From a virus: a stretch of DNA of 64,000 nt. Location of the stretch: positions 43,006-107,005 of the IMG/VR virus record IMGVR_UViG_3300025121_000027; one strand, given 5' to 3'. Shown one piece after another: positions 46,921 to 52,957 of this stretch. Both the position numbers and the translations under genes were made by a program. Numbering within the stretch: position 1 is the first letter of the stretch; every line of letters starts with the position of its first letter. The notes beneath the pieces were generated by a model. It saw only the letters and a program-made list of their open reading frames with translations. It did not search any database and had not been told where the DNA came from.

Positions 46921-46979
46921 CTCTGCAACGTCAGAACAGCTTCTAATTGAGTTTAAACGCATATTCGGTTTCTTTTAAA

Positions 46980-47102
46980 ATACCGCATTGTTGGACTCGA
47001 ACCAACTCCTTTCTCATATGCTGTTCAAGCATGATCACCATTGGCCGTCGTGCTGTCTTACTGCATCATGTTGACTATTCTTCCCAGAACTAAATGCGGC
47101 AT
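46980..47102 (-). ncRNA. Enlarged tRNA-like RNA (~123 nt) with extended anticodon arm and no CCA
   Basis: 10-bp terminal stem AUGCCGCAUU/AAUGCGGUAU, UA linker, D-like arm GUUC/GAAU, long stem UCAACAUGAU/AUCAUG(C)UUGA, T arm GUUGG-UUCGAGU-CCAAC. Confidence 0.7.
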
Positions 47103-47410: not shown

Positions 47411-47664
47411 TTTTGCTTTTCTCCTTTTTTGAGTTCTTTTATGGTAGATACCATTTTGCAGAAATCAAATAAGTATTTACGATCATTAAGAACTAAAACA
47501 ACATTAGTTTTCTTTTCTATTGAAAGAATCATACACTCTTCTTCACAAACATTTTGACTGCTTCCAGGAATCGCACTAACTACAATTTCTCTTATATGAA
47601 TTGTATTAAGTTTTCTTTCTTTTCTTTCTGCATACATTTTACCTTCCCTCCTTTTTAAATACAT
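47407..47664 (-). CDS. Hypothetical protein
   Basis: Overlaps both neighbours; GGAGG RBS before MYAERK. Confidence 0.55.
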   Translation of the reverse strand: MYLKRREGKMYAERKERKLNTIHIREIVVSAIPGSSQNVCEEECMILSIEKKTNVVLVLNDRKYLFDFCKMVSTIKELKKGEKQK

Positions 47665-49105
47665 CTTTAAGAGTCAACAAGGGAATCTGCATGATCTCAT
47701 CCACCAAACTATACTTACTTGTTCGCATGGTCTTAATCAAATTGGGAAGTGAATAATAATCTACATTATTCCCAAGCTCAAACTTTTGCAATTGAATATC
47801 TGCACTCTCGCAGTAAGAAGACATTCTATCATTTTCGCCAGGAACATGAAACATATAAACAGTTGGCTCAATACCAATATCTCTTCTATAATCATCATAA
47901 GCATTGTGAAAATAAGGAGAGCGATTATCACCGCCATCAGTACAGACAGCAATTCCGTTTACCACAATTCCTTTTTCTTTAATTAGCTCCAAGCCACAAC
48001 CAATAGAAGTGCTGCCAGTTGCAGTCAATCGTTTTGTATCATTCTTAATTTGCTCCAATGTCTTTCCTGTAACATCAAAATAAATCGGAGTATCATTAAA
48101 AAAAACAAGATGAACATTACCCTTAACTTGTCTTGCAATCAAAGCAGCAACATTTCTTGCAACTTCAATAGAAGTCTGCATAGAGCCAGAGCGATCCCCG
48201 AGCACAAGCCAATCACCATCAATACTACTATTGTCCAACTTATCTTCTTGCGCTTTGTGAAGTTTAGCGGAAAGCTTCTTATCTGTCTTTGCTACCGCTT
48301 CAGCAGCTTTCGTTATCTTCATCGAAGGTGTTTTCTTATCTTTCTGCATCCTTACTATACCATTATCATAAGCAGCTTTCAATGCAGGGTTTTCAAATAC
48401 TCCCATTTTTTGAAGCATGTTTGTATTTGTAATAAGTTCTGCTCCTGTCATGCGTTCAATCAGAGCAAGAATAACATCGGACTTTCCCTTAATACCACCA
48501 AGAGCACCAACAGCAATAAGATATGGTATCTTATGATTAAGAATTGCACCAGCGGCTTCTTGCGCTTTCATGTTTTTTAAATCTTTGACAACTTGAAAAA
48601 CACTATTCTTTGGATATTTCTTTTCAAATAGAATCTCTTGTGCTCGTTTATTTGGCTTGACATGATAGATAGCATAAAGACTTTTCATGGATTCTCTATG
48701 CTGCAATACAGTTCTATCCCACCAACCAATAGACTTTTCTCTTTCTCTGATAAACATTCTAACAGCTTGCTTTAACCAAGTACCGCCACCCTCTTGACAT
48801 AGCGGCAATTCTCTATGGTATCTACAAGCCCTCAAGAAGTCTTTAGGGGAAAGCTTGCAGAGATGAGCGGCGGCATTTTCATATAGTTCATCATCTTTGC
48901 TGCTGCGTAAAGATAGAATAGGAAAAGCCACTTTACTATCTCTTACTTCGCCCTTCAGTTCATTCCACGCAATGATATGTGCAAACAGTTCTGGCTCATG
49001 CTTTACTGCTTTCAAACCGATATCATTGTAAATAGAGAGATTGCCATGACCGACGCGCAGGAGTTGATTCACAATTTGATTTTGCGATGCTGCGATCTTT
49101 TCCAT
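47639..49105 (-). CDS. Divergent Ro60/TROVE-like helical domain plus vWA (MIDAS) protein
   Basis: Start refined to MEKIAAS (488 aa); ~290 aa helical N-domain then vWA with LGDRSGSM, TGSTS and CTDGGDN; flanked by tRNA-like RNAs as Ro60 loci are. Confidence 0.7.
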   Translation of the reverse strand: MEKIAASQNQIVNQLLRVGHGNLSIYNDIGLKAVKHEPELFAHIIAWNELKGEVRDSKVAFPILSLRSSKDDELYENAAAHLCKLSPKDFLRACRYHRELPLCQEGGGTWLKQAVRMFIREREKSIGWWDRTVLQHRESMKSLYAIYHVKPNKRAQEILFEKKYPKNSVFQVVKDLKNMKAQEAAGAILNHKIPYLIAVGALGGIKGKSDVILALIERMTGAELITNTNMLQKMGVFENPALKAAYDNGIVRMQKDKKTPSMKITKAAEAVAKTDKKLSAKLHKAQEDKLDNSSIDGDWLVLGDRSGSMQTSIEVARNVAALIARQVKGNVHLVFFNDTPIYFDVTGKTLEQIKNDTKRLTATGSTSIGCGLELIKEKGIVVNGIAVCTDGGDNRSPYFHNAYDDYRRDIGIEPTVYMFHVPGENDRMSSYCESADIQLQKFELGNNVDYYSLPNLIKTMRTSKYSLVDEIMQIPLLTLKDVFKKEGR

Positions 49106-49106
49106 T

Positions 49107-49217
49107 TTATTTTTCCTTTTGGTTGTTAGATTTTTTACAATAGAACAAATTATAGTGCTTTGTCGCTCTAACAGCAATTCTTAATCTTTTTGCTGCTTTT
49201 CTTTTATGTTTATTCAT
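49107..49217 (-). CDS. 36-aa basic peptide MNKHKRKAAKRLRIAVRATKHYNLFYCKKSNNQKEK
   Basis: Read manually; its stop is 1 nt before the ATG of the Ro-like gene. Confidence 0.4.
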   Translation of the reverse strand: MNKHKRKAAKRLRIAVRATKHYNLFYCKKSNNQKEK

Positions 49218-49317: not shown

Positions 49318-49335
49318 ATAAATTTTTTCTAAAAA

Positions 49336-49378
49336 AATAGGCTTGAGAATCAGAATACTATTGTTTCTCAAGCCTATT
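49336..49378 (-). terminator. 14-bp hairpin followed by a U-tract
   Basis: AATAGGCTTGAGAA / TTCTCAAGCCTATT; A-run at 49331-49337 gives the U-tract on the minus strand. Confidence 0.55.
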
Positions 49379-49559
49379 AAAATTTGAGTGCGGATGCATT
49401 GTTCCTTCGATGTCCTTCGATAAAGGATTAGCACTCATATTCCTAAACTCATCAGCCGTTTTTAGCCATCCTCATATATTACTTTTGAGCATAATGATTT
49501 GCCTATGAGGACTGAAGGTATAAAACAAATCATATGTGACGTCTCAAAAGAAATCTAAC

Positions 49560-49634
49560 TGGTCGCCGAAGAAGGACTCGAACCTTGCATGAATGTTCCC
49601 AAAACACTCGTGTTACCACTACACTACTTCGGCG
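49560..49634 (-). tRNA. tRNA-Pro(UGG), apparently 8-bp acceptor / 4-bp T stem
   Basis: CGCCGAAG/CUUCGGCG, A73, CCA; AGUGU-UUUGGGA-ACAUU; AAGG-UUCGAGU-CCUU. Confidence 0.85.
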
Positions 49635-49644
49635 TAAAACTAAA

Positions 49645-49774
49645 AAAAGGGGAAAGTCGAAAAAGTTTTATACTACTTTTGATACAGGACTTGAACCTGC
49701 TACCGATTGCTTGGAATGCAATTGCTCTACCAAATTGAGCTAATCATGTAAACTTTTAAGCGGTATCCCCTTTT
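49645..49774 (-). ncRNA. Y-RNA-like element E1 carrying a UCC-anticodon tRNA module (49680-49746)
   Basis: Outer stem AAAAGGGGA/UCCCCUUUU, loop UACCGCUU/UCGACUU, inner stem AAAAGUUU/AAACUUUU, ACA, then a cloverleaf with 4-bp acceptor. Confidence 0.8.
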
Positions 49775-49783
49775 GTGTTCAAA

Positions 49784-49925
49784 TTAGCAAGAAGTCGTAT
49801 AAGCTATGTTGATTATACAGATTGATTTAGAGTCAATTGCGTATACCATTCCGCCTTATTCTCCGAAGAAAATAGAAGGAGTCGAACCTTCAAGTATCAT
49901 GTAAGCTTAATGCGGTGCTTGCTAA
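49784..49925 (-). ncRNA. Y-RNA-like element E2 carrying a circularly permuted CUA-anticodon tRNA (49810-49899)
   Basis: Outer stem UUAGCAAG/CUUGCUAA, CACCGCAU/UACGACUU, UAAGCU/AGCUUA, ACA; arm order T arm, UUCG-capped acceptor, D arm, anticodon arm. Confidence 0.82.
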
Positions 49926-49936
49926 ACTTTTTAAAA

Positions 49937-50007
49937 ATGGCGAGAAGTTATATAAGCTCTCTATTGTTTACTCCAGAAACATGTAAGCTTAAGATGATAC
50001 CCGCCAT
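49937..50007 (-). ncRNA. Y-RNA-like element E3, scaffold only
   Basis: AUGGCGGG/CUCGCCAU, UAUCAUCU/UAUAACUU, UAAGCUU/GAGCUUA, ACA, short apical hairpin. Confidence 0.72.
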
Positions 50008-50016
50008 AAGAACTTT

Positions 50017-50150
50017 TAAATCAGTAAGTCGAATAAGCTTTTTACTTTGGTTGCAATTGTTGGATTTGAACCAACTACTTATTCTTTATGAGAGAATCGC
50101 TCTACCAAATTGAGCTAAGTTGCGTGTAGGCTTAATCTGTAACTGATTTA
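50017..50150 (-). ncRNA. Y-RNA-like element E4 carrying a complete CAU-anticodon tRNA with CCA (50048-50124)
   Basis: UAAAUCAGU/ACUGAUUUA, UACAGAU/UUCGACUU, UAAGC/GCUUA, ACA; 77-nt tRNA CGCAACU...AAUUGCA-ACCA. Confidence 0.82.
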
Positions 50151-50161
50151 ATTTTCAAAGA
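50150..50161 (-). promoter_or_regulatory. boxA-like antitermination element
   Basis: UCUUUGAAAAUU between promoter and RNA array; identical copy at 50470-50481. Confidence 0.65.
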
Positions 50162-50180
50162 TCAATTGTTATTCTGAAAT

Positions 50181-50209
50181 ACTATAATAGAAAAGTTTTA
50201 AAAAATAAA
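50181..50209 (-). promoter_or_regulatory. Conserved promoter, copy 2 (drives the ncRNA array)
   Basis: TTTATT-N17-TATAGT. Confidence 0.72.
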
Positions 50210-50226
50210 GAGTAGATAAAATTTTT

Positions 50227-50465
50227 GTTTGCATGGCTGCCAGGATTCGAACCTGGACAACCGATTTGCGTAGCTTCTGCCCTACGCTCGTACGCTGCTG
50301 CGCGAGTAAATCCTCGATTGATCCGCACAGTTCGTCAGCAGATCCTTCTCGGCCAAAGTGCGGTGCGTTTCCGTGGGTTATTCAGCGTCATTTTGGAAGA
50401 TTGTTCATGCAATCTTTTGTCTACCCAAATGTCCTTTCGCCAACTTTCCGCCACAGCCAGCAAAC
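50227..50465 (-). ncRNA. Giant (~239 nt) tRNA-like RNA
   Basis: 12-bp terminal stem GUUUGCUGGCUG/CAGCCA(U)GCAAAC, UGGCGGAA D-arm start, T arm CCAGG-UUCGAAU-CCUGG, several internal hairpins; GC-rich; has its own promoter and boxA. Confidence 0.72.
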
Positions 50466-50469
50466 TATT

Positions 50470-50481
50470 AATTTTCAAAGA
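50470..50481 (-). promoter_or_regulatory. boxA-like antitermination element
   Basis: UCUUUGAAAAUU, identical to 50150-50161. Confidence 0.65.
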
Positions 50482-50505
50482 CCATCTTAAACTTGATTCT
50501 GACTT

Positions 50506-50534
50506 ATTATAATAGAGACTTTTAGAAAAATAAA
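50506..50534 (-). promoter_or_regulatory. Conserved promoter, copy 3
   Basis: TTTATT-N17-TATAAT. Confidence 0.75.
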
Positions 50535-50546
50535 GCCAAGCTAAAA

Positions 50547-51365
50547 TTAATTTCCAGTATAGCTTTTCGGCATAGGTATCTTATCCGAATTTGCCAACTT
50601 AGAACTTGCTTCCTGTATTTGCTTATCACAATCAACAATTTTCTTCATTATATCTTTGGCCTTTTCCGGTACAGAATCAAAAGCAAGCCTTACCAAATCC
50701 ATCCATCGTTTATTATTTTTCCCTCTAATTTCTTCTATCTTATTGATTAATTCTTGATCGCTTTGTTTTTCAGAAGATATGCCAAAAACTTTTTCAAAAG
50801 GATCTATATTTTTCTGTTCTTTCAACAATCCATATTCATAAACATCTACAAATTCACCATTAAGAAACATTGCTTCCTTAAAGATACCCTCTTTTTTAAA
50901 CCCGAGTTTTTCAAATACTTTTTGCATACCGATATTTGTTGCTGCTGTGCCACTCCAGATTCGATTCAATCCAAGTTTTTTAAATCCATGCTCGCATATC
51001 TCTTTAACCGCAAAAGTCGCAACTCCTTTACCATAATAATCTGGTTCACCAATTACAATGGCAATTTCAGCAGACCTATTAATTAGATCAATTCTTTGAA
51101 GTGAAACATTACCGATATGCTTAGGTCCTTTAACTAAGATACTCCAAATTATTCTTGATTCGTCATATTGCAATGTTTCTTTTATGTCTGTATCTGGAGA
51201 GTACGGGAAAAGTCCATGACTGTTTTTTGAAACTACTTCTGGACGATTAAACCAAAACTTATAATCAGAATTAATATTTTTGTTGTCGTATACTTCACAG
51301 AATGGAGCAAGATGAATAGTTCCTGCTTTTTCACTATAGGTTGTTGCTAAGACATTATAATTCAT
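50547..51365 (-). CDS. RimJ/RimL-type GNAT acetyltransferase (PseH-like) with an extra C-terminal helical domain
   Basis: HIGNVSL..ID..NRSAE..I.IGE..Y.GKG.A, N.GM..V.EKLGF.KEG. Confidence 0.8.
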   Translation of the reverse strand: MNYNVLATTYSEKAGTIHLAPFCEVYDNKNINSDYKFWFNRPEVVSKNSHGLFPYSPDTDIKETLQYDESRIIWSILVKGPKHIGNVSLQRIDLINRSAEIAIVIGEPDYYGKGVATFAVKEICEHGFKKLGLNRIWSGTAATNIGMQKVFEKLGFKKEGIFKEAMFLNGEFVDVYEYGLLKEQKNIDPFEKVFGISSEKQSDQELINKIEEIRGKNNKRWMDLVRLAFDSVPEKAKDIMKKIVDCDKQIQEASSKLANSDKIPMPKSYTGN

Positions 51366-51733
51366 TAACCATTCTCCTTTAACATCTCTTCTATTTTATT
51401 CCAATATAAATGTTCAACTGGTATTCCAAATTCATCCGCATTTACTTTTTCAATATGAATACCAAATGATTCTGTCCAGCCAGGAGCGCAAACAATAATC
51501 ATCTTATCCGCCCACTCTACAAGGATTGGCAAATCTTGAGCAAGCCAAAAGTTATGATCTAAATGACTGACTCCTTTTAATACTTTTGAAATCGGGTGGC
51601 TGTGAGATAAAGGAGAAAATACTACATGACCCGCTTTCATTAAAATGCCAGCAATCTTATCTGCTATATCAACGCGATATTCACAAACAGAATAATCCTT
51701 ATGAGAATAAGGGCAAGCCAAATAGATTTTCAT
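51365..51733 (-). CDS. Nucleoside 2-deoxyribosyltransferase-like protein (DUF1937-like)
   Basis: KIYLACPYSH, VFSPLSHSH, GW.ES.G...E. Confidence 0.8.
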   Translation of the reverse strand: MKIYLACPYSHKDYSVCEYRVDIADKIAGILMKAGHVVFSPLSHSHPISKVLKGVSHLDHNFWLAQDLPILVEWADKMIIVCAPGWTESFGIHIEKVNADEFGIPVEHLYWNKIEEMLKENG

Positions 51734-51735
51734 TT

Positions 51736-51996
51736 TTAAATCCTTTTCAGTTTAATTGCTTCATGTTTGTTTAGTTTGTCAATAAATACATCTACCATAT
51801 CTGGATGGCATACAACCAAATTAGCGCTTACAAAATAATAAAATTCAGAAGATGGAACTTGTTTAGTATATTTCTTTCTATACTTCTTAATCCATCTTGC
51901 ATTACTTTTCTTTTTAGGATGTTTAGTTTGAATAACTTCTAAAAGATTATTGTTTGTTTTTATTCTTATATTTGTTGGAAGAGGGTTAATCACCAT
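51736..51996 (-). CDS. Hypothetical basic protein
   Basis: ORF track; packed between neighbours. Confidence 0.55.
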   Translation of the reverse strand: MVINPLPTNIRIKTNNNLLEVIQTKHPKKKSNARWIKKYRKKYTKQVPSSEFYYFVSANLVVCHPDMVDVFIDKLNKHEAIKLKRI

Positions 51997-52957
51997 TTAA
52001 CAATCCTTTAATTACTTCAATATTGTCTGTATACAAAGGATTTCTATCGTCGCTGTATAGGCAATCCTTTAAAGAAGTTATCCACAAAGAAATTCCTTGC
52101 GGCGCTATAATATACTTATCTTCTTTCTCATTTGTTCTGAATATCTCTTCTTGATTGATTAACATTTCATGCGCTTTTTCCCCAGGTCTTCTTCCTACAA
52201 TTTTCCAATTACTTTCATCTGTTCCTGTCGTCGCTTTTATAAATACTTCTAACGAACAAGAAATCATCTTTGGAATATAAGTATACCCAGGCATACAGCT
52301 ATCAAGACAATCTAAAACAAACTTTGCAACTTTAGGAAGCGGAATCCAAAAGCGAGTCATTTCAGGATCAGTAATTGGTATTTTCTTTCCTTTATCAAGA
52401 AGTTTAATCATGTCTAAAATACTACCTCTTGAACCAATTACATTTCCATATCTAACAACAGCAAAATTAGTTCCCCACCCACCGCTATAAATGCTACCTC
52501 TTGACCATAATTTTTCAGCGCACATTTTGCTTGCGCCATATAGATTGATACTCTCCACCGCCTTATCGGTGCTAATAAACATTGCGCTTTTTACATTGGC
52601 AGCAATGCAAGCCATCATAACATTTTCTGTCCCATATACATTTGTCTTGATATATTCTAATGGATTATCTTCTGCTATCGGTACATGTTTCAATGCAGCA
52701 GTATGAATAACATGAGTAACACCTTTCAATGCTTCCGCTAATCTTCGATAGTCTCTAACGTCTCCTATAATAAAAGCAATAGGAGGCATGTCTTTTCCTT
52801 CTAATTGTTTCTTTAAATTATACTGCTTTAATTCGTCCCTACTATAAATCCGTATCCCTTTAATGTTTTTATTTCCTTCAAGTTGATTGAGAATTGCTTT
52901 TCCTAATGAACCAGTACCACCAGTTATTAGATATTCGCGTTTATATTCTATTTTCAT
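51986..52957 (-). CDS. pseB: UDP-N-acetylglucosamine 4,6-dehydratase (PseB/FlaA1-like)
   Basis: ITGGTGSLG, YSRDELKQ, HTAALKHVP, STDKA...NLYGASK, RYGNV.GSRGS, ITDPEMTRFW, RPGEK.HE. Confidence 0.9.
   Translation of the reverse strand: MKIEYKREYLITGGTGSLGKAILNQLEGNKNIKGIRIYSRDELKQYNLKKQLEGKDMPPIAFIIGDVRDYRRLAEALKGVTHVIHTAALKHVPIAEDNPLEYIKTNVYGTENVMMACIAANVKSAMFISTDKAVESINLYGASKMCAEKLWSRGSIYSGGWGTNFAVVRYGNVIGSRGSILDMIKLLDKGKKIPITDPEMTRFWIPLPKVAKFVLDCLDSCMPGYTYIPKMISCSLEVFIKATTGTDESNWKIVGRRPGEKAHEMLINQEEIFRTNEKEDKYIIAPQGISLWITSLKDCLYSDDRNPLYTDNIEVIKGLLNGD

What the first reader, a model, noticed from the sequence alone, without database searches (positions are those of the whole stretch)
50227..50465. 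Giant tRNA-like RNA with insertions in the D, anticodon and variable regions
Seen: a GC-rich 239-nt unit with its own promoter and boxA, a 12-bp bulged terminal stem, a Leu/Ser-like UGGCGGAA start and a canonical T arm directly 5' of the closing strand. Internal helices include AAGAUUG/CAAUCUU, CCGCAC/GUGCGG, GAUUU/AAAUC enclosing CUCG/CGAG and CGUAG/CUACG. There is no CCA and no tmRNA-type alanine acceptor. Inference: an ornate tRNA-derived ncRNA of unknown class, or a tRNA interrupted by unusual intervening sequences.
Basis: partly seen in the sequence, partly recalled or inferred. Interest (0 to 1): 0.75.

Follow-up and report, generated by a model that had tools for sequence, protein, structure and literature searches.

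The report
Giant tRNA-shaped RNA beside phage Ro60
A 239-base phage gene makes an RNA with the outer frame of a tRNA but two large folded inserts and no anticodon loop; it opens a cluster of small RNA genes upstream of a Ro60 gene, so it is probably a non-decoding tRNA mimic that works with Ro60.

Summary
On the minus strand, window 50465->50227 is a GC-rich island (52% against about 35%). It has a 12-bp bulged terminal stem, a textbook T arm next to the closing strand, and a class-II-like UGGCGGAA..GG start. It matches no Rfam family even at E<=10, and ARAGORN calls neither a tRNA nor a tmRNA.

A fold that keeps the terminal stem and T arm costs no energy relative to the free optimum and gives a giant cloverleaf. 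It has a 75-nt rod in the D loop, about 84 nt of hairpins in place of the anticodon loop, and a short variable loop. Removing the D insert in silico makes ARAGORN call a tRNA.

The unit opens an RNA operon: a duplicated promoter plus boxA-like cassette, four Y-like RNAs and tRNAs, then a protein I confirmed by fold as Ro60.

The RNA carries one GNCGAAN0-1G motif, the proposed bacterial Ro60-binding site. It lacks the handle motif of this phage group's other Ro60-linked RNAs.

I found no sequence homologue. One roughly 90%-identical relative in a groundwater run keeps both ends but replaces the inner 138 nt with 87 others.

Best reading: a new variant of the tRNA-mimicking Y RNAs (confidence 0.5). 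Earlier notes of this scan report similar giant tRNA-shaped Ro60-linked RNAs on other DNA.

The parts
50227..50465 (-). The 239-nt RNA unit (RNA 1-239; RNA position p = window 50466-p)
   Evidence: Sequence; GC-rich island; single copy in the 107-kb phage genome
50454..50465 (-). 5' strand of the terminal stem (RNA 1-12). RNA 6-12 is the tRNA-like acceptor 5' strand; RNA 1-5 is a leader that pairs with the trailer
   Evidence: pair probability 0.96 for 1-6/234-239; no change in the run-X8 relative
50227..50239 (-). 3' strand of the terminal stem (RNA 227-239): CAGCCA, then U233 (bulge or position 72), G234 (discriminator-like), CAAAC trailer; no CCA
   Evidence: RNA 208-238 differs by 1 base in 31 from ordinary tRNA-Trp(CCA) genes on other contigs of the same metagenomes (tables 7 and 8)
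50240..50256 (-). T arm (RNA 210-226): CCAGG UUCGAAU CCUGG
   Evidence: Sequence; pair probability 0.78
50440..50453 (-). tRNA positions 8-19 equivalent (RNA 13-26): U8, G9, D-stem 5' strand GGCG, then AAAGUUGG with the G18G19 pair
   Evidence: Sequence; ARAGORN draws a canonical D arm once RNA 27-101 is removed in silico
50360..50364 (-). A21 equivalent plus D-stem 3' strand CCGC (RNA 102-106)
   Evidence: Pairs 15-18/103-106 in the MFE and in the frame-constrained fold
50365..50439 (-). 75-nt rod inserted in the D loop after G18G19 (RNA 27-101); tip hairpin AAGAUUG-CAUGAA-CAAUCUU at RNA 50-69 (window 50397-50416)
50434..50441 (-). GGCGAAAG, the only GNCGAAN0-1G motif in the unit (RNA 25-32)
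   Evidence: arises by chance in 22% of shuffles anywhere and 5% within the first 45 nt. Motif defined in PMC4201824; a CGAA motif was used to find the phiLo Yrl RNAs, PMC12135203. GGCGAA is kept in the relative, but G32 and G33 become A
50259..50354 (-). Anticodon-arm equivalent (RNA 112-207): closing helix GGCCGA/UCGGUU around an ~84-nt multi-hairpin insert. The insert includes hairpins at RNA 122-146 (loop UGACGAACUGU) and 179-198. No anticodon loop
   Evidence: Frame-constrained fold at -78.5 against MFE -78.7 kcal/mol
50256..50393 (-). Interior (RNA 73-210) that a ~90%-identical relative replaces with 87 unrelated letters
   Evidence: read laying joint in run X8: skips 138, 87 letters between (tables 5 and 8)
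50466..50546 (-). Promoter-leader cassette: TCTATTATAATA (-10-like TATAAT at 50511-50506) and boxA-like TCTTTGAAAATTAA at 50481-50468
   Evidence: The -10 and boxA-like boxes are unchanged in the relative. The same boxA-like motif is enriched on the Ro60 strand in relatives, 35 against 11
50146..50226 (-). Second copy of the cassette, heading the Y-like RNA array
   Evidence: In the relative its TATAGT becomes TATAAT (position 50182)
49645..50150 (-). Four Y-like RNAs with the UAC..UACAUG / CGACUU handle (context)
47639..49177 (-). Ro60 (TROVE plus vWA) gene; the database form has 488 aa, so the likely start is near 49105
   Evidence: PHROG 850; AlphaFold model pLDDT 86; Foldseek full-length matches to Ro60 of Thermus phage phiLo, human, Xenopus and Deinococcus, E 1e-8 to 4e-11, TM 0.55-0.66

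Best explanation
The unit is a transcribed, non-decoding, tRNA-derived RNA. It is the first gene of the phage's Ro60 RNA operon and most likely works as an oversized Y-RNA-type partner of the phage Ro60.

Shown:
- It keeps a tRNA outer frame. There is a 7-position acceptor stem with a C-U mismatch at 1:72. U8, a 4-bp D stem, A14, G18G19, A21 and a canonical T arm are all present, so the T-loop/D-loop elbow could form.
- Two structured inserts interrupt the frame: 75 nt at the exposed D-loop position 20, and about 84 nt in place of the anticodon loop.
- A leader-trailer extension lengthens the end helix to 12 bp.
- It shares a promoter plus boxA-like cassette with the Y-like RNA array. It lies about 1.05 kb upstream of Ro60 on the same strand.

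Inferred:
- Ro60 binds it, perhaps at the single GGCGAAAG motif near the 5' end.
- The tRNA elbow and the insert arms recruit or mimic a substrate of host tRNA- or RNA-processing proteins, as Y RNAs tether Ro60 to PNPase.
- The interior behaves as an exchangeable module between related phages.
For: - No known family fits.
- The cloverleaf with the frame enforced is isoenergetic with the MFE.
- ARAGORN calls a tRNA at its default threshold only after RNA 27-101 is removed in silico, and then draws a canonical D arm.
- The 3' 31 nt are nearly identical to real tRNA-Trp genes.
- The Ro60 fold is confirmed.
- The duplicated cassette and its boxA-like box occur only before the RNA units. They are conserved in a relative and in other Ro60 loci.
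- 142 Ro60-relative loci carry many tRNA-shaped, acceptor-closed RNAs upstream of Ro60. One family has 32 members with covarying acceptor, T and inner stems. Several are enlarged to 156-195 nt.
- A GNCGAAN0-1G motif lies near the 5' end (PMC4201824; PMC12135203).
Against: - The handle shared by this phage group's Ro60-linked RNAs is not detectable in it. The handle model R2 gave no hit at E<=10. PWMs of both handle halves score no better than shuffles.
- The Rfam YrlA model does not match.
- The CGAA motif alone is weak (5-22% by chance), and its final G is lost in the relative.
- The RNA is about twice the size of known Y RNAs.
- There is no homologue set, so no covariation supports the internal helices.
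- The MFE z-score is only -1.8.
- There is no expression data.
Confidence: 0.5

Rival explanations
1. A tRNA mimic that acts independently of Ro60. For example, it could be a decoy or sponge for host tRNA-targeting defence nucleases or tRNA-modifying and processing enzymes. On this view it merely shares the strong promoter and boxA cassette used for stable RNAs.
For: - It has its own promoter cassette, separate from the Y array.
- It lacks the Ro60 handle motif.
- Its interior is swapped between close relatives while the frame is kept, as expected for a target-mimic under an arms race.
Against: - In 142 related loci, the tRNA-shaped non-tRNAs cluster just upstream of Ro60 on its strand.
- A CGAA-type motif is present near the 5' end.
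Confidence: 0.2
2. A real tRNA gene (Trp- or Leu-like) interrupted by intervening sequences that are removed to give a decoding tRNA.
For: - Canonical acceptor, D and T frame once RNA 27-101 is removed.
- The 3' part is nearly identical to tRNA-Trp genes.
- A relative has an interior of different length.
Against: - No anticodon stem-loop can be reconstructed. ARAGORN's 'Arg/ACG' arm has mismatches and changes with the deletion end points.
- A D-loop insert has no known bacterial splicing route (my own knowledge).
- No group I or other ribozyme signal at E<=10.
- No RtcB or CCA-adding enzyme in the phage.
- C-U mismatch at 1:72 and no CCA.
Confidence: 0.07
3. A decaying tRNA gene: a pseudogene scarred by insertions of GC-rich foreign DNA, with no function.
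For: - It is a singleton with no homologues in large collections.
- The interior is not conserved in the near relative.
Against: - A dedicated promoter and boxA cassette.
- 49 nt (leader plus RNA 1-20) are perfectly conserved amid about 10% divergence.
- A 5-bp leader-trailer extension of the acceptor stem would not be expected in a scar.
- The relative keeps both ends in register around a different interior.
Confidence: 0.08
4. A small protein gene on the plus strand (ORF 50233-50490, 85 aa), or a tmRNA-like RNA.
For: - Open frames of 85 and 95 aa cover the island.
- The relative's replacement differs by 51 nt, a multiple of three.
Against: - No Pfam match.
- The six listed substitutions fall three on first and three on third codon positions.
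- The ORF is antisense to a canonical T arm and runs against the direction of all its neighbours.
- ARAGORN -m and Rfam find no tmRNA, and there is no G3:U70 pair.
Confidence: 0.03

Closest known systems
YrlA-type bacterial and phage Y RNAs (Rfam RF02553; Chen et al. 2014, PMC4201824)
   Same: Encoded within 4 kb upstream of Ro60 on the same strand. Contains a tRNA-like T arm and D element. Has a GNCGAAN0-1G motif near the 5' end. Its ends pair in a long stem.
   Different: - No match to the YrlA model.
- 239 nt against about 80-150 nt.
- Different topology. In YrlA the ends close the Ro60-binding stem and the tRNA part is circularly permuted. Here the ends close the acceptor stem and the extra domains sit in the D loop and anticodon loop.
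Yrl1/Yrl2 of Thermus phage phiLo with phiRo60 (PMC12135203; PDB 9KOP, 9L5Y)
   Same: A phage Ro60 with candidate partner RNAs upstream, identified by a 5'-3' stem and a CGAA motif. The Ro60 model here matches 9KOP best.
   Different: The phiLo RNAs are described as stem-bulge-stem Y RNA-like RNAs. In what I read of that paper, no tRNA frame is described for them, and binding was shown experimentally. Nothing has been tested for this RNA.
Acceptor-closed tRNA-shaped RNAs of this Ro60 phage group (model R1, 32 members found here), including enlarged members such as L030:1887-2067 (181 nt) and L257:2401-2556 (156 nt)
   Same: Same operon position, acceptor plus T arm closure and D-like 5' element. 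Some also follow a boxA-like box (L030).
   Different: Those carry the conserved GACUU..UACU..UACAUG handle in place of the anticodon arm, and most end in NCCA. This RNA has neither.
tmRNA
   Same: A large RNA whose ends form a tRNA-like acceptor plus T arm domain around a long structured interior.
   Different: No G3:U70 pair, no CCA and no tag reading frame of the usual kind. ARAGORN and Rfam are negative.
tRNA genes with group I introns in the anticodon loop
   Same: A tRNA frame interrupted at the anticodon loop.
   Different: The insert is only about 84 nt, with no group I core. There is a second insert in the D loop. No anticodon is recoverable.

Membership tests
tRNA (RF00005 / ARAGORN) | Whole-molecule match to the tRNA covariance model or an ARAGORN call | tested here: not met
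   No RF00005 hit at gathering score or at E<=10. ARAGORN gives nothing at default, with or without introns.
tRNA (RF00005 / ARAGORN) | Canonical T arm, 7-position acceptor stem, and D arm with A14, G18G19 and A21 | tested here: met
   T arm CCAGG-UUCGAAU-CCUGG. Acceptor has 6 bp plus a C-U mismatch at 1:72. The D arm GGCG-AAAGUUGGA-CCGC appears only after RNA 27-101 is removed in silico.
tRNA (RF00005 / ARAGORN) | Anticodon stem with a 7-nt loop | tested here: not met
   The position is occupied by about 84 nt of hairpins. ARAGORN's forced arm is mismatched and unstable.
tmRNA | Alanine acceptor (G3:U70), tag reading frame, detection by ARAGORN -m or Rfam | tested here: not met
   The third pair is G-C. 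ARAGORN -m at a lowered threshold finds nothing. No Rfam hit.
YrlA (RF02553) | Match to the YrlA covariance model (permuted T / AS / D arrangement) | tested here: not met
   cmscan of 50100-50600 at E<=10 lists no YrlA hit.
YrlA (RF02553) | Encoded within 4 kb of Ro60 on the same strand | tested here: met
   The RNA 3' end (50227) lies 1.05 kb upstream of the Ro60 ORF start (49177), same strand. Ro60 fold confirmed.
YrlA (RF02553) | GNCGAAN0-1G motif near the 5' end | tested here: met
   GGCGAAAG at RNA 25-32. Weak evidence: 5% of shuffles have one within the first 45 nt.
Y RNA (functional class) | Bound by Ro60 | not testable with these tools
   Needs EMSA or co-immunoprecipitation.
Handle-bearing Y-like RNAs of this phage group (models R1 and R2, built here) | Conserved handle GACUU .. 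UACU .. UACAUG with an inner stem | tested here: not met
   R2 gives no hit in 50227-50465 at E<=10, while it finds the neighbouring elements. PWM scores are -5.3 and 0.1 bits, exceeded by 407 and 305 of 500 shuffles. R1 scores 17.9 bits, in the range of ordinary tRNAs.
tRNA with a group I intron | Group I catalytic core in the insert | tested here: not met
   No Intron_gpI or other ribozyme hit at E<=10.

The most novel reading that the evidence does not exclude
The tRNA frame is a display scaffold whose two insert sites (D-loop position 20 and the anticodon loop) carry exchangeable RNA modules. Closely related phages swap these modules, giving a hypervariable RNA cassette system. It could retarget the phage Ro60 particle, or decoy different host tRNA-directed enzymes or defences.
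Probability: 0.15. Interest if true: 0.8.

Novelty: new variant of a known kind. Interest (0 to 1): 0.55.

Why it matters
Ro60/Y-RNA particles are known from animals, some bacteria and a few phages. The published Y RNAs I read about here are small: 80-130 nt for the characterised ones, about 147 nt for M. smegmatis YrlA.

This locus suggests that phage Ro60 operons also encode much larger RNAs. They appear to be built by inflating a tRNA at two exposed loops, and they are driven by rRNA-style promoter and boxA cassettes.

If Ro60 binds this RNA, the range of Y-RNA architectures widens. It would also offer a natural scaffold for asking what the non-Ro60 end of a Y RNA recruits during infection.

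The interior swap between near relatives hints at fast, modular evolution of that end.

Tried and rejected
**Searches for homologues, all negative**
- blastn against 50,697 phage records.
- Exact-pattern scans of IMG/VR with the 3' 25-mer, the tip hairpin and the 5' 16-mer. The first two found nothing. The third and the GTDB scan of the same 16-mer gave only unrelated chance hits: nhmmer found nothing and blastn found only one short chance match.
- GTDB genomes: the 26-mer found nothing. The 22-mer hit only ordinary tRNA-Gln, Trp and Pro genes.
- nhmmer and blastn over 80 metagenome and 62 IMG/VR Ro60-relative loci.
- Whole records of 8 related phage contigs.
- Neighbours of the GNAT gene and the tail-sheath gene.

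**Tools and runs**
The 14-kb contig of the 84%-identical Ro60 (P0002) could not be fetched.
- Sequencing runs: no RNA holder listed.
- Read laying does not report changes within about 30 nt of a piece end. Conservation of RNA 42-72 and 211-239 in the relative is therefore known only as at least 80% likeness.

**Readings rejected**
- Handle membership.
- Homology with the ~255-nt RNA of L031/L039, or with the enlarged RNAs of L044, L030 and L085. The alignments are unconvincing.
- The 7-nt complement between the tip loop (UUGCAUG) and the 3' end (CAUGCAA). About 2.6 such pairs are expected by chance in this stretch (my estimate).
- A profile of the Ro60 family finds no PDB sequence match, and Pfam sees only a weak vWA match. 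Only the fold comparison identified Ro60.
- A hammerhead-like CUGAUGAG in the spacer at 49400-49450: no Rfam support.

Full report
**1. What is there**

The window belongs to a 107-kb phage genome with direct terminal repeats (IMG/VR, complete by CheckV). It encodes portal, major head, sheath and baseplate proteins of a myovirus. Its sequence occurs in groundwater and soil metagenomes.

The finding lies on the minus strand, window 50465->50227. RNA position p equals window 50466-p. I confirmed the following features:
- A 12-bp terminal stem with U233 bulged.
- A textbook T arm (CCAGG-UUCGAAU-CCUGG) that abuts the closing strand.
- UGGCGGAA at RNA 13-20.
- No CCA and no G3:U70 pair.

GC is 52% in a roughly 35% GC region. 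The unit is single-copy in the genome.

**2. No known family**

Rfam 15 gives nothing here at gathering scores or at E<=10 on a 501-nt stretch. That covers tRNA, tmRNA, YrlA, group I introns and other ribozymes. ARAGORN calls neither a tRNA nor a tmRNA, with or without introns. Only at strongly lowered thresholds does it force an implausible model.

**3. Anatomy**

The free MFE (-78.7 kcal/mol, z = -1.8) and a fold that enforces the terminal stem and T arm (-78.5 kcal/mol) are equivalent in energy. The enforced fold is a cloverleaf of giant size:

| Element | RNA positions | Note |
|---|---|---|
| End helix | 1-12 / 227-239 | 12 bp, U233 bulged |
| Linker | 13-14 | two nucleotides |
| D stem | 15-18 / 103-106 | encloses AAAGUUGG, a 75-nt irregular rod (27-101, tip hairpin 50-69), then A102 |
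| Hinge | 107-111 | short |
| Anticodon-arm equivalent | 112-117 / 202-207 | encloses about 84 nt with three to four hairpins |
| Linker | 208-209 | two nucleotides |
| T arm | 210-226 | canonical |

Read as a tRNA, the sequence offers U8, G10, A14, A15 with U48, G18G19, A21, G53-C61 and the T-loop consensus. The elbow could therefore form. The D insert sits at the exposed position 20.

Deleting RNA 27-101 in silico makes ARAGORN call a tRNA at its default threshold, spanning exactly C6 to C235 (the acceptor stem C6-U233 plus G234 and C235). It draws a canonical D arm, GGCG-AAAGUUGGA-CCGC. Many nearby deletion end points also work, and a 4-bp closure is not rare by chance. This supports the model but does not prove it. 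The anticodon arm ARAGORN then draws is poor and varies with the deletion, so no anticodon is recoverable.

**4. Descent from a tRNA**

Contigs from four runs were laid on the region. Many unrelated contigs match only window 50228-50258, which covers the last variable-loop bases, the T arm, the acceptor 3' strand, G73 and CAAA. The best has 1 mismatch in 31. These contigs then continue as ordinary tRNAs with the anticodon loop CUCCAAA, which is tRNA-Trp (tables 7 and 8).

One contig aligns back to RNA 199. That places the 3' anticodon-stem strand at A201-G205 and gives a 4-nt variable loop. U72 and G73 are, to my knowledge, typical of bacterial tRNA-Trp. The 22-mer of T arm plus CAGCC alone is shared by tRNA-Gln, Trp and Pro of many lineages and says nothing about the host.

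**5. Context**

The unit is the first gene of a run of RNA genes on one strand. The order is:
1. Cassette 1.
2. The 239-mer.
3. Cassette 2.
4. Four Y-like RNAs (50150-49645).
5. tRNA-Pro.
6. A spacer ending in a strong terminator-like hairpin.
7. tRNA-Arg.
8. A 488/512-aa ORF.

The two cassettes are about 75% identical over roughly 85 nt. Each holds TCTATTATA(A/G)TA and TCTTTGAAAATTAA. The second motif occurs nowhere else in the 64-kb window. To my knowledge it resembles the boxA antitermination element of rRNA operons.

The same motif, including an exact GCTCTTTAACAA in L073, is enriched on the Ro60 strand of related loci (35 against 11). It often lies just before their RNA arrays.

The ORF has no Pfam TROVE hit and no PDB sequence hit. 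Its AlphaFold model (pLDDT 86) nevertheless matches Ro60 over its full length. Matches include Thermus phage phiLo, human, Xenopus and Deinococcus Ro60, at E 1e-8 to 4e-11 and TM 0.55-0.66.

**6. Relatives**

The Ro60 protein has hundreds of homologues. In 142 loci fetched around them, the 239-mer has no sequence homologue. The loci are nonetheless full of tRNA-shaped non-tRNAs upstream of Ro60.

One family is closed by an acceptor stem and usually ends in NCCA. Its anticodon arm is replaced by a conserved handle, GACUU - hairpin - UACU - inner stem - UACAUG. I collected 32 members, with compensatory changes in the acceptor, T and inner stems.

Enlarged versions of 156-195 nt exist:
- L030/L056 (181 nt) follow a boxA-like box and carry the handle.
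- L044 (175 nt) has a Leu-like D arm with an insert after G18G19.
- L085 (195 nt) has a Ser-like frame with a giant variable region.
- L257 is 156 nt.

Inflating a tRNA frame is therefore a recurrent theme at these loci.

**7. Is the 239-mer one of them?**

No, by the tests I could make:
- A covariance model of the handle (R2) finds the neighbouring elements but nothing in the 239-mer at E<=10.
- Weight matrices of both handle halves score below most shuffles.
- The whole-family model R1 scores it at 17.9 bits, like ordinary tRNAs.

It does carry one GNCGAAN0-1G motif (GGCGAAAG, RNA 25-32). Chen et al. proposed this motif as the Rsr-binding site near the 5' end of YrlA RNAs. A CGAA motif was also used to find the phiLo Yrl RNAs, which bind phage Ro60. 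By shuffling, such a motif arises in 22% of sequences, and in 5% within the first 45 nt. This is a hint only.

**8. A near relative**

In run X8, a 742-nt contig of about 90% identity covers the cassettes and both ends of the unit. It replaces window 50256-50393 (RNA 73-210, 138 nt) with 87 unalignable letters.

Window 50446-50494 (RNA 1-20 plus the leader with the boxA-like box) shows no change. About five changes would be expected there. RNA 21-38 shows six changes.

The -10 box of cassette 1 is unchanged. In cassette 2, TATAGT becomes TATAAT. Changes within about 30 nt of a piece end are not reported, so the T arm and the tip hairpin cannot be judged.

The frame and the expression signals are thus under constraint, while the interior is exchangeable or evolves fast.

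**9. Reading**

The unit is very likely a real stable RNA made from a tRNA gene. It cannot decode. The phage has no RtcB and no CCA-adding enzyme.

Its place at the head of the Ro60 RNA operon, the class of its neighbours and the CGAA motif make a Y-RNA-type partnership with Ro60 the best single explanation (0.5). By analogy with RYPER and with the phiLo complexes, the tRNA elbow and the insert arms would engage host factors.

The missing handle keeps a Ro60-independent tRNA decoy alive as a rival (0.2). The other rivals are less likely: a spliced tRNA (0.07), a pseudogene (0.08), and a plus-strand ORF or tmRNA (0.03).

**10. Earlier notes of this scan**

Earlier notes described the neighbouring Y-like RNAs and the Ro60 gene on this genome. 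They also described giant tRNA-shaped Ro60-linked RNAs in other phages. I used them as leads. The Ro60 fold, the handle and the cassettes were re-tested here. The other-genome cases were not.

Noticed in passing
L031:2014-2280 and L039:1718-1986: Another unknown GC-rich RNA of about 255 nt with a 12-13-bp terminal stem. The stem shows a compensatory change (AUCAGGG/CCCUGAU against AUCGGGG/CCCCGAU). It sits at the same operon position, 1.2-1.5 kb upstream of Ro60. The two copies are 74.5% identical by blastn. No Rfam family at gathering scores, and no convincing homology to the 239-mer.
   Followed up: partly
window 46979-47099 (-): A 117-121-nt acceptor-closed tRNA-shaped RNA just downstream of the Ro60 gene. 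It is a divergent member of the R1 family (45.5 bits, E 4e-9), with no CCA.
   Followed up: partly
L028-L107 and L213-L274 (Ro60-relative loci): A family of at least 32 RNAs of about 113-130 nt. Each is tRNA-shaped and mostly ends in NCCA, with the anticodon arm replaced by a GACUU-hairpin-UACU-stem-UACAUG handle. They lie 0.7-1.1 kb upstream of Ro60. Acceptor, T and inner stems covary. Rfam calls at most a weak tRNA for some of them.
   Followed up: partly
window 49991-50046 (-), relative in run X8: The same ~90%-identical relative replaces 54 nt between the first and second Y-like elements with 196 other letters. This is probably an extra RNA element in the array (table 5).
   Followed up: no
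window 49333-49378 (-): A 13-bp hairpin, AUAGGCUUGAGAA..UUCUCAAGCCUAU, followed by seven U, lies between tRNA-Pro and tRNA-Arg. It looks like an intrinsic terminator separating the RNA array from tRNA-Arg and Ro60. The consensus scan missed it because its loop is longer than 8 nt. The boxA-like leaders may serve to read through it.
   Followed up: no
window 49380-49560 (-): About 180 nt of spacer after tRNA-Pro, with no ORF and no Rfam match at E below 0.5. It contains CUGAUGAG..CGAAGG strings but has no hammerhead support.
   Followed up: partly
window 50547-52957 (-): The genes just upstream of the RNA operon are a GNAT acetyltransferase, a nucleoside 2-deoxyribosyltransferase-like protein and a nucleotide-sugar epimerase. 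They belong to the sugar-modification set that earlier notes describe.
   Followed up: no
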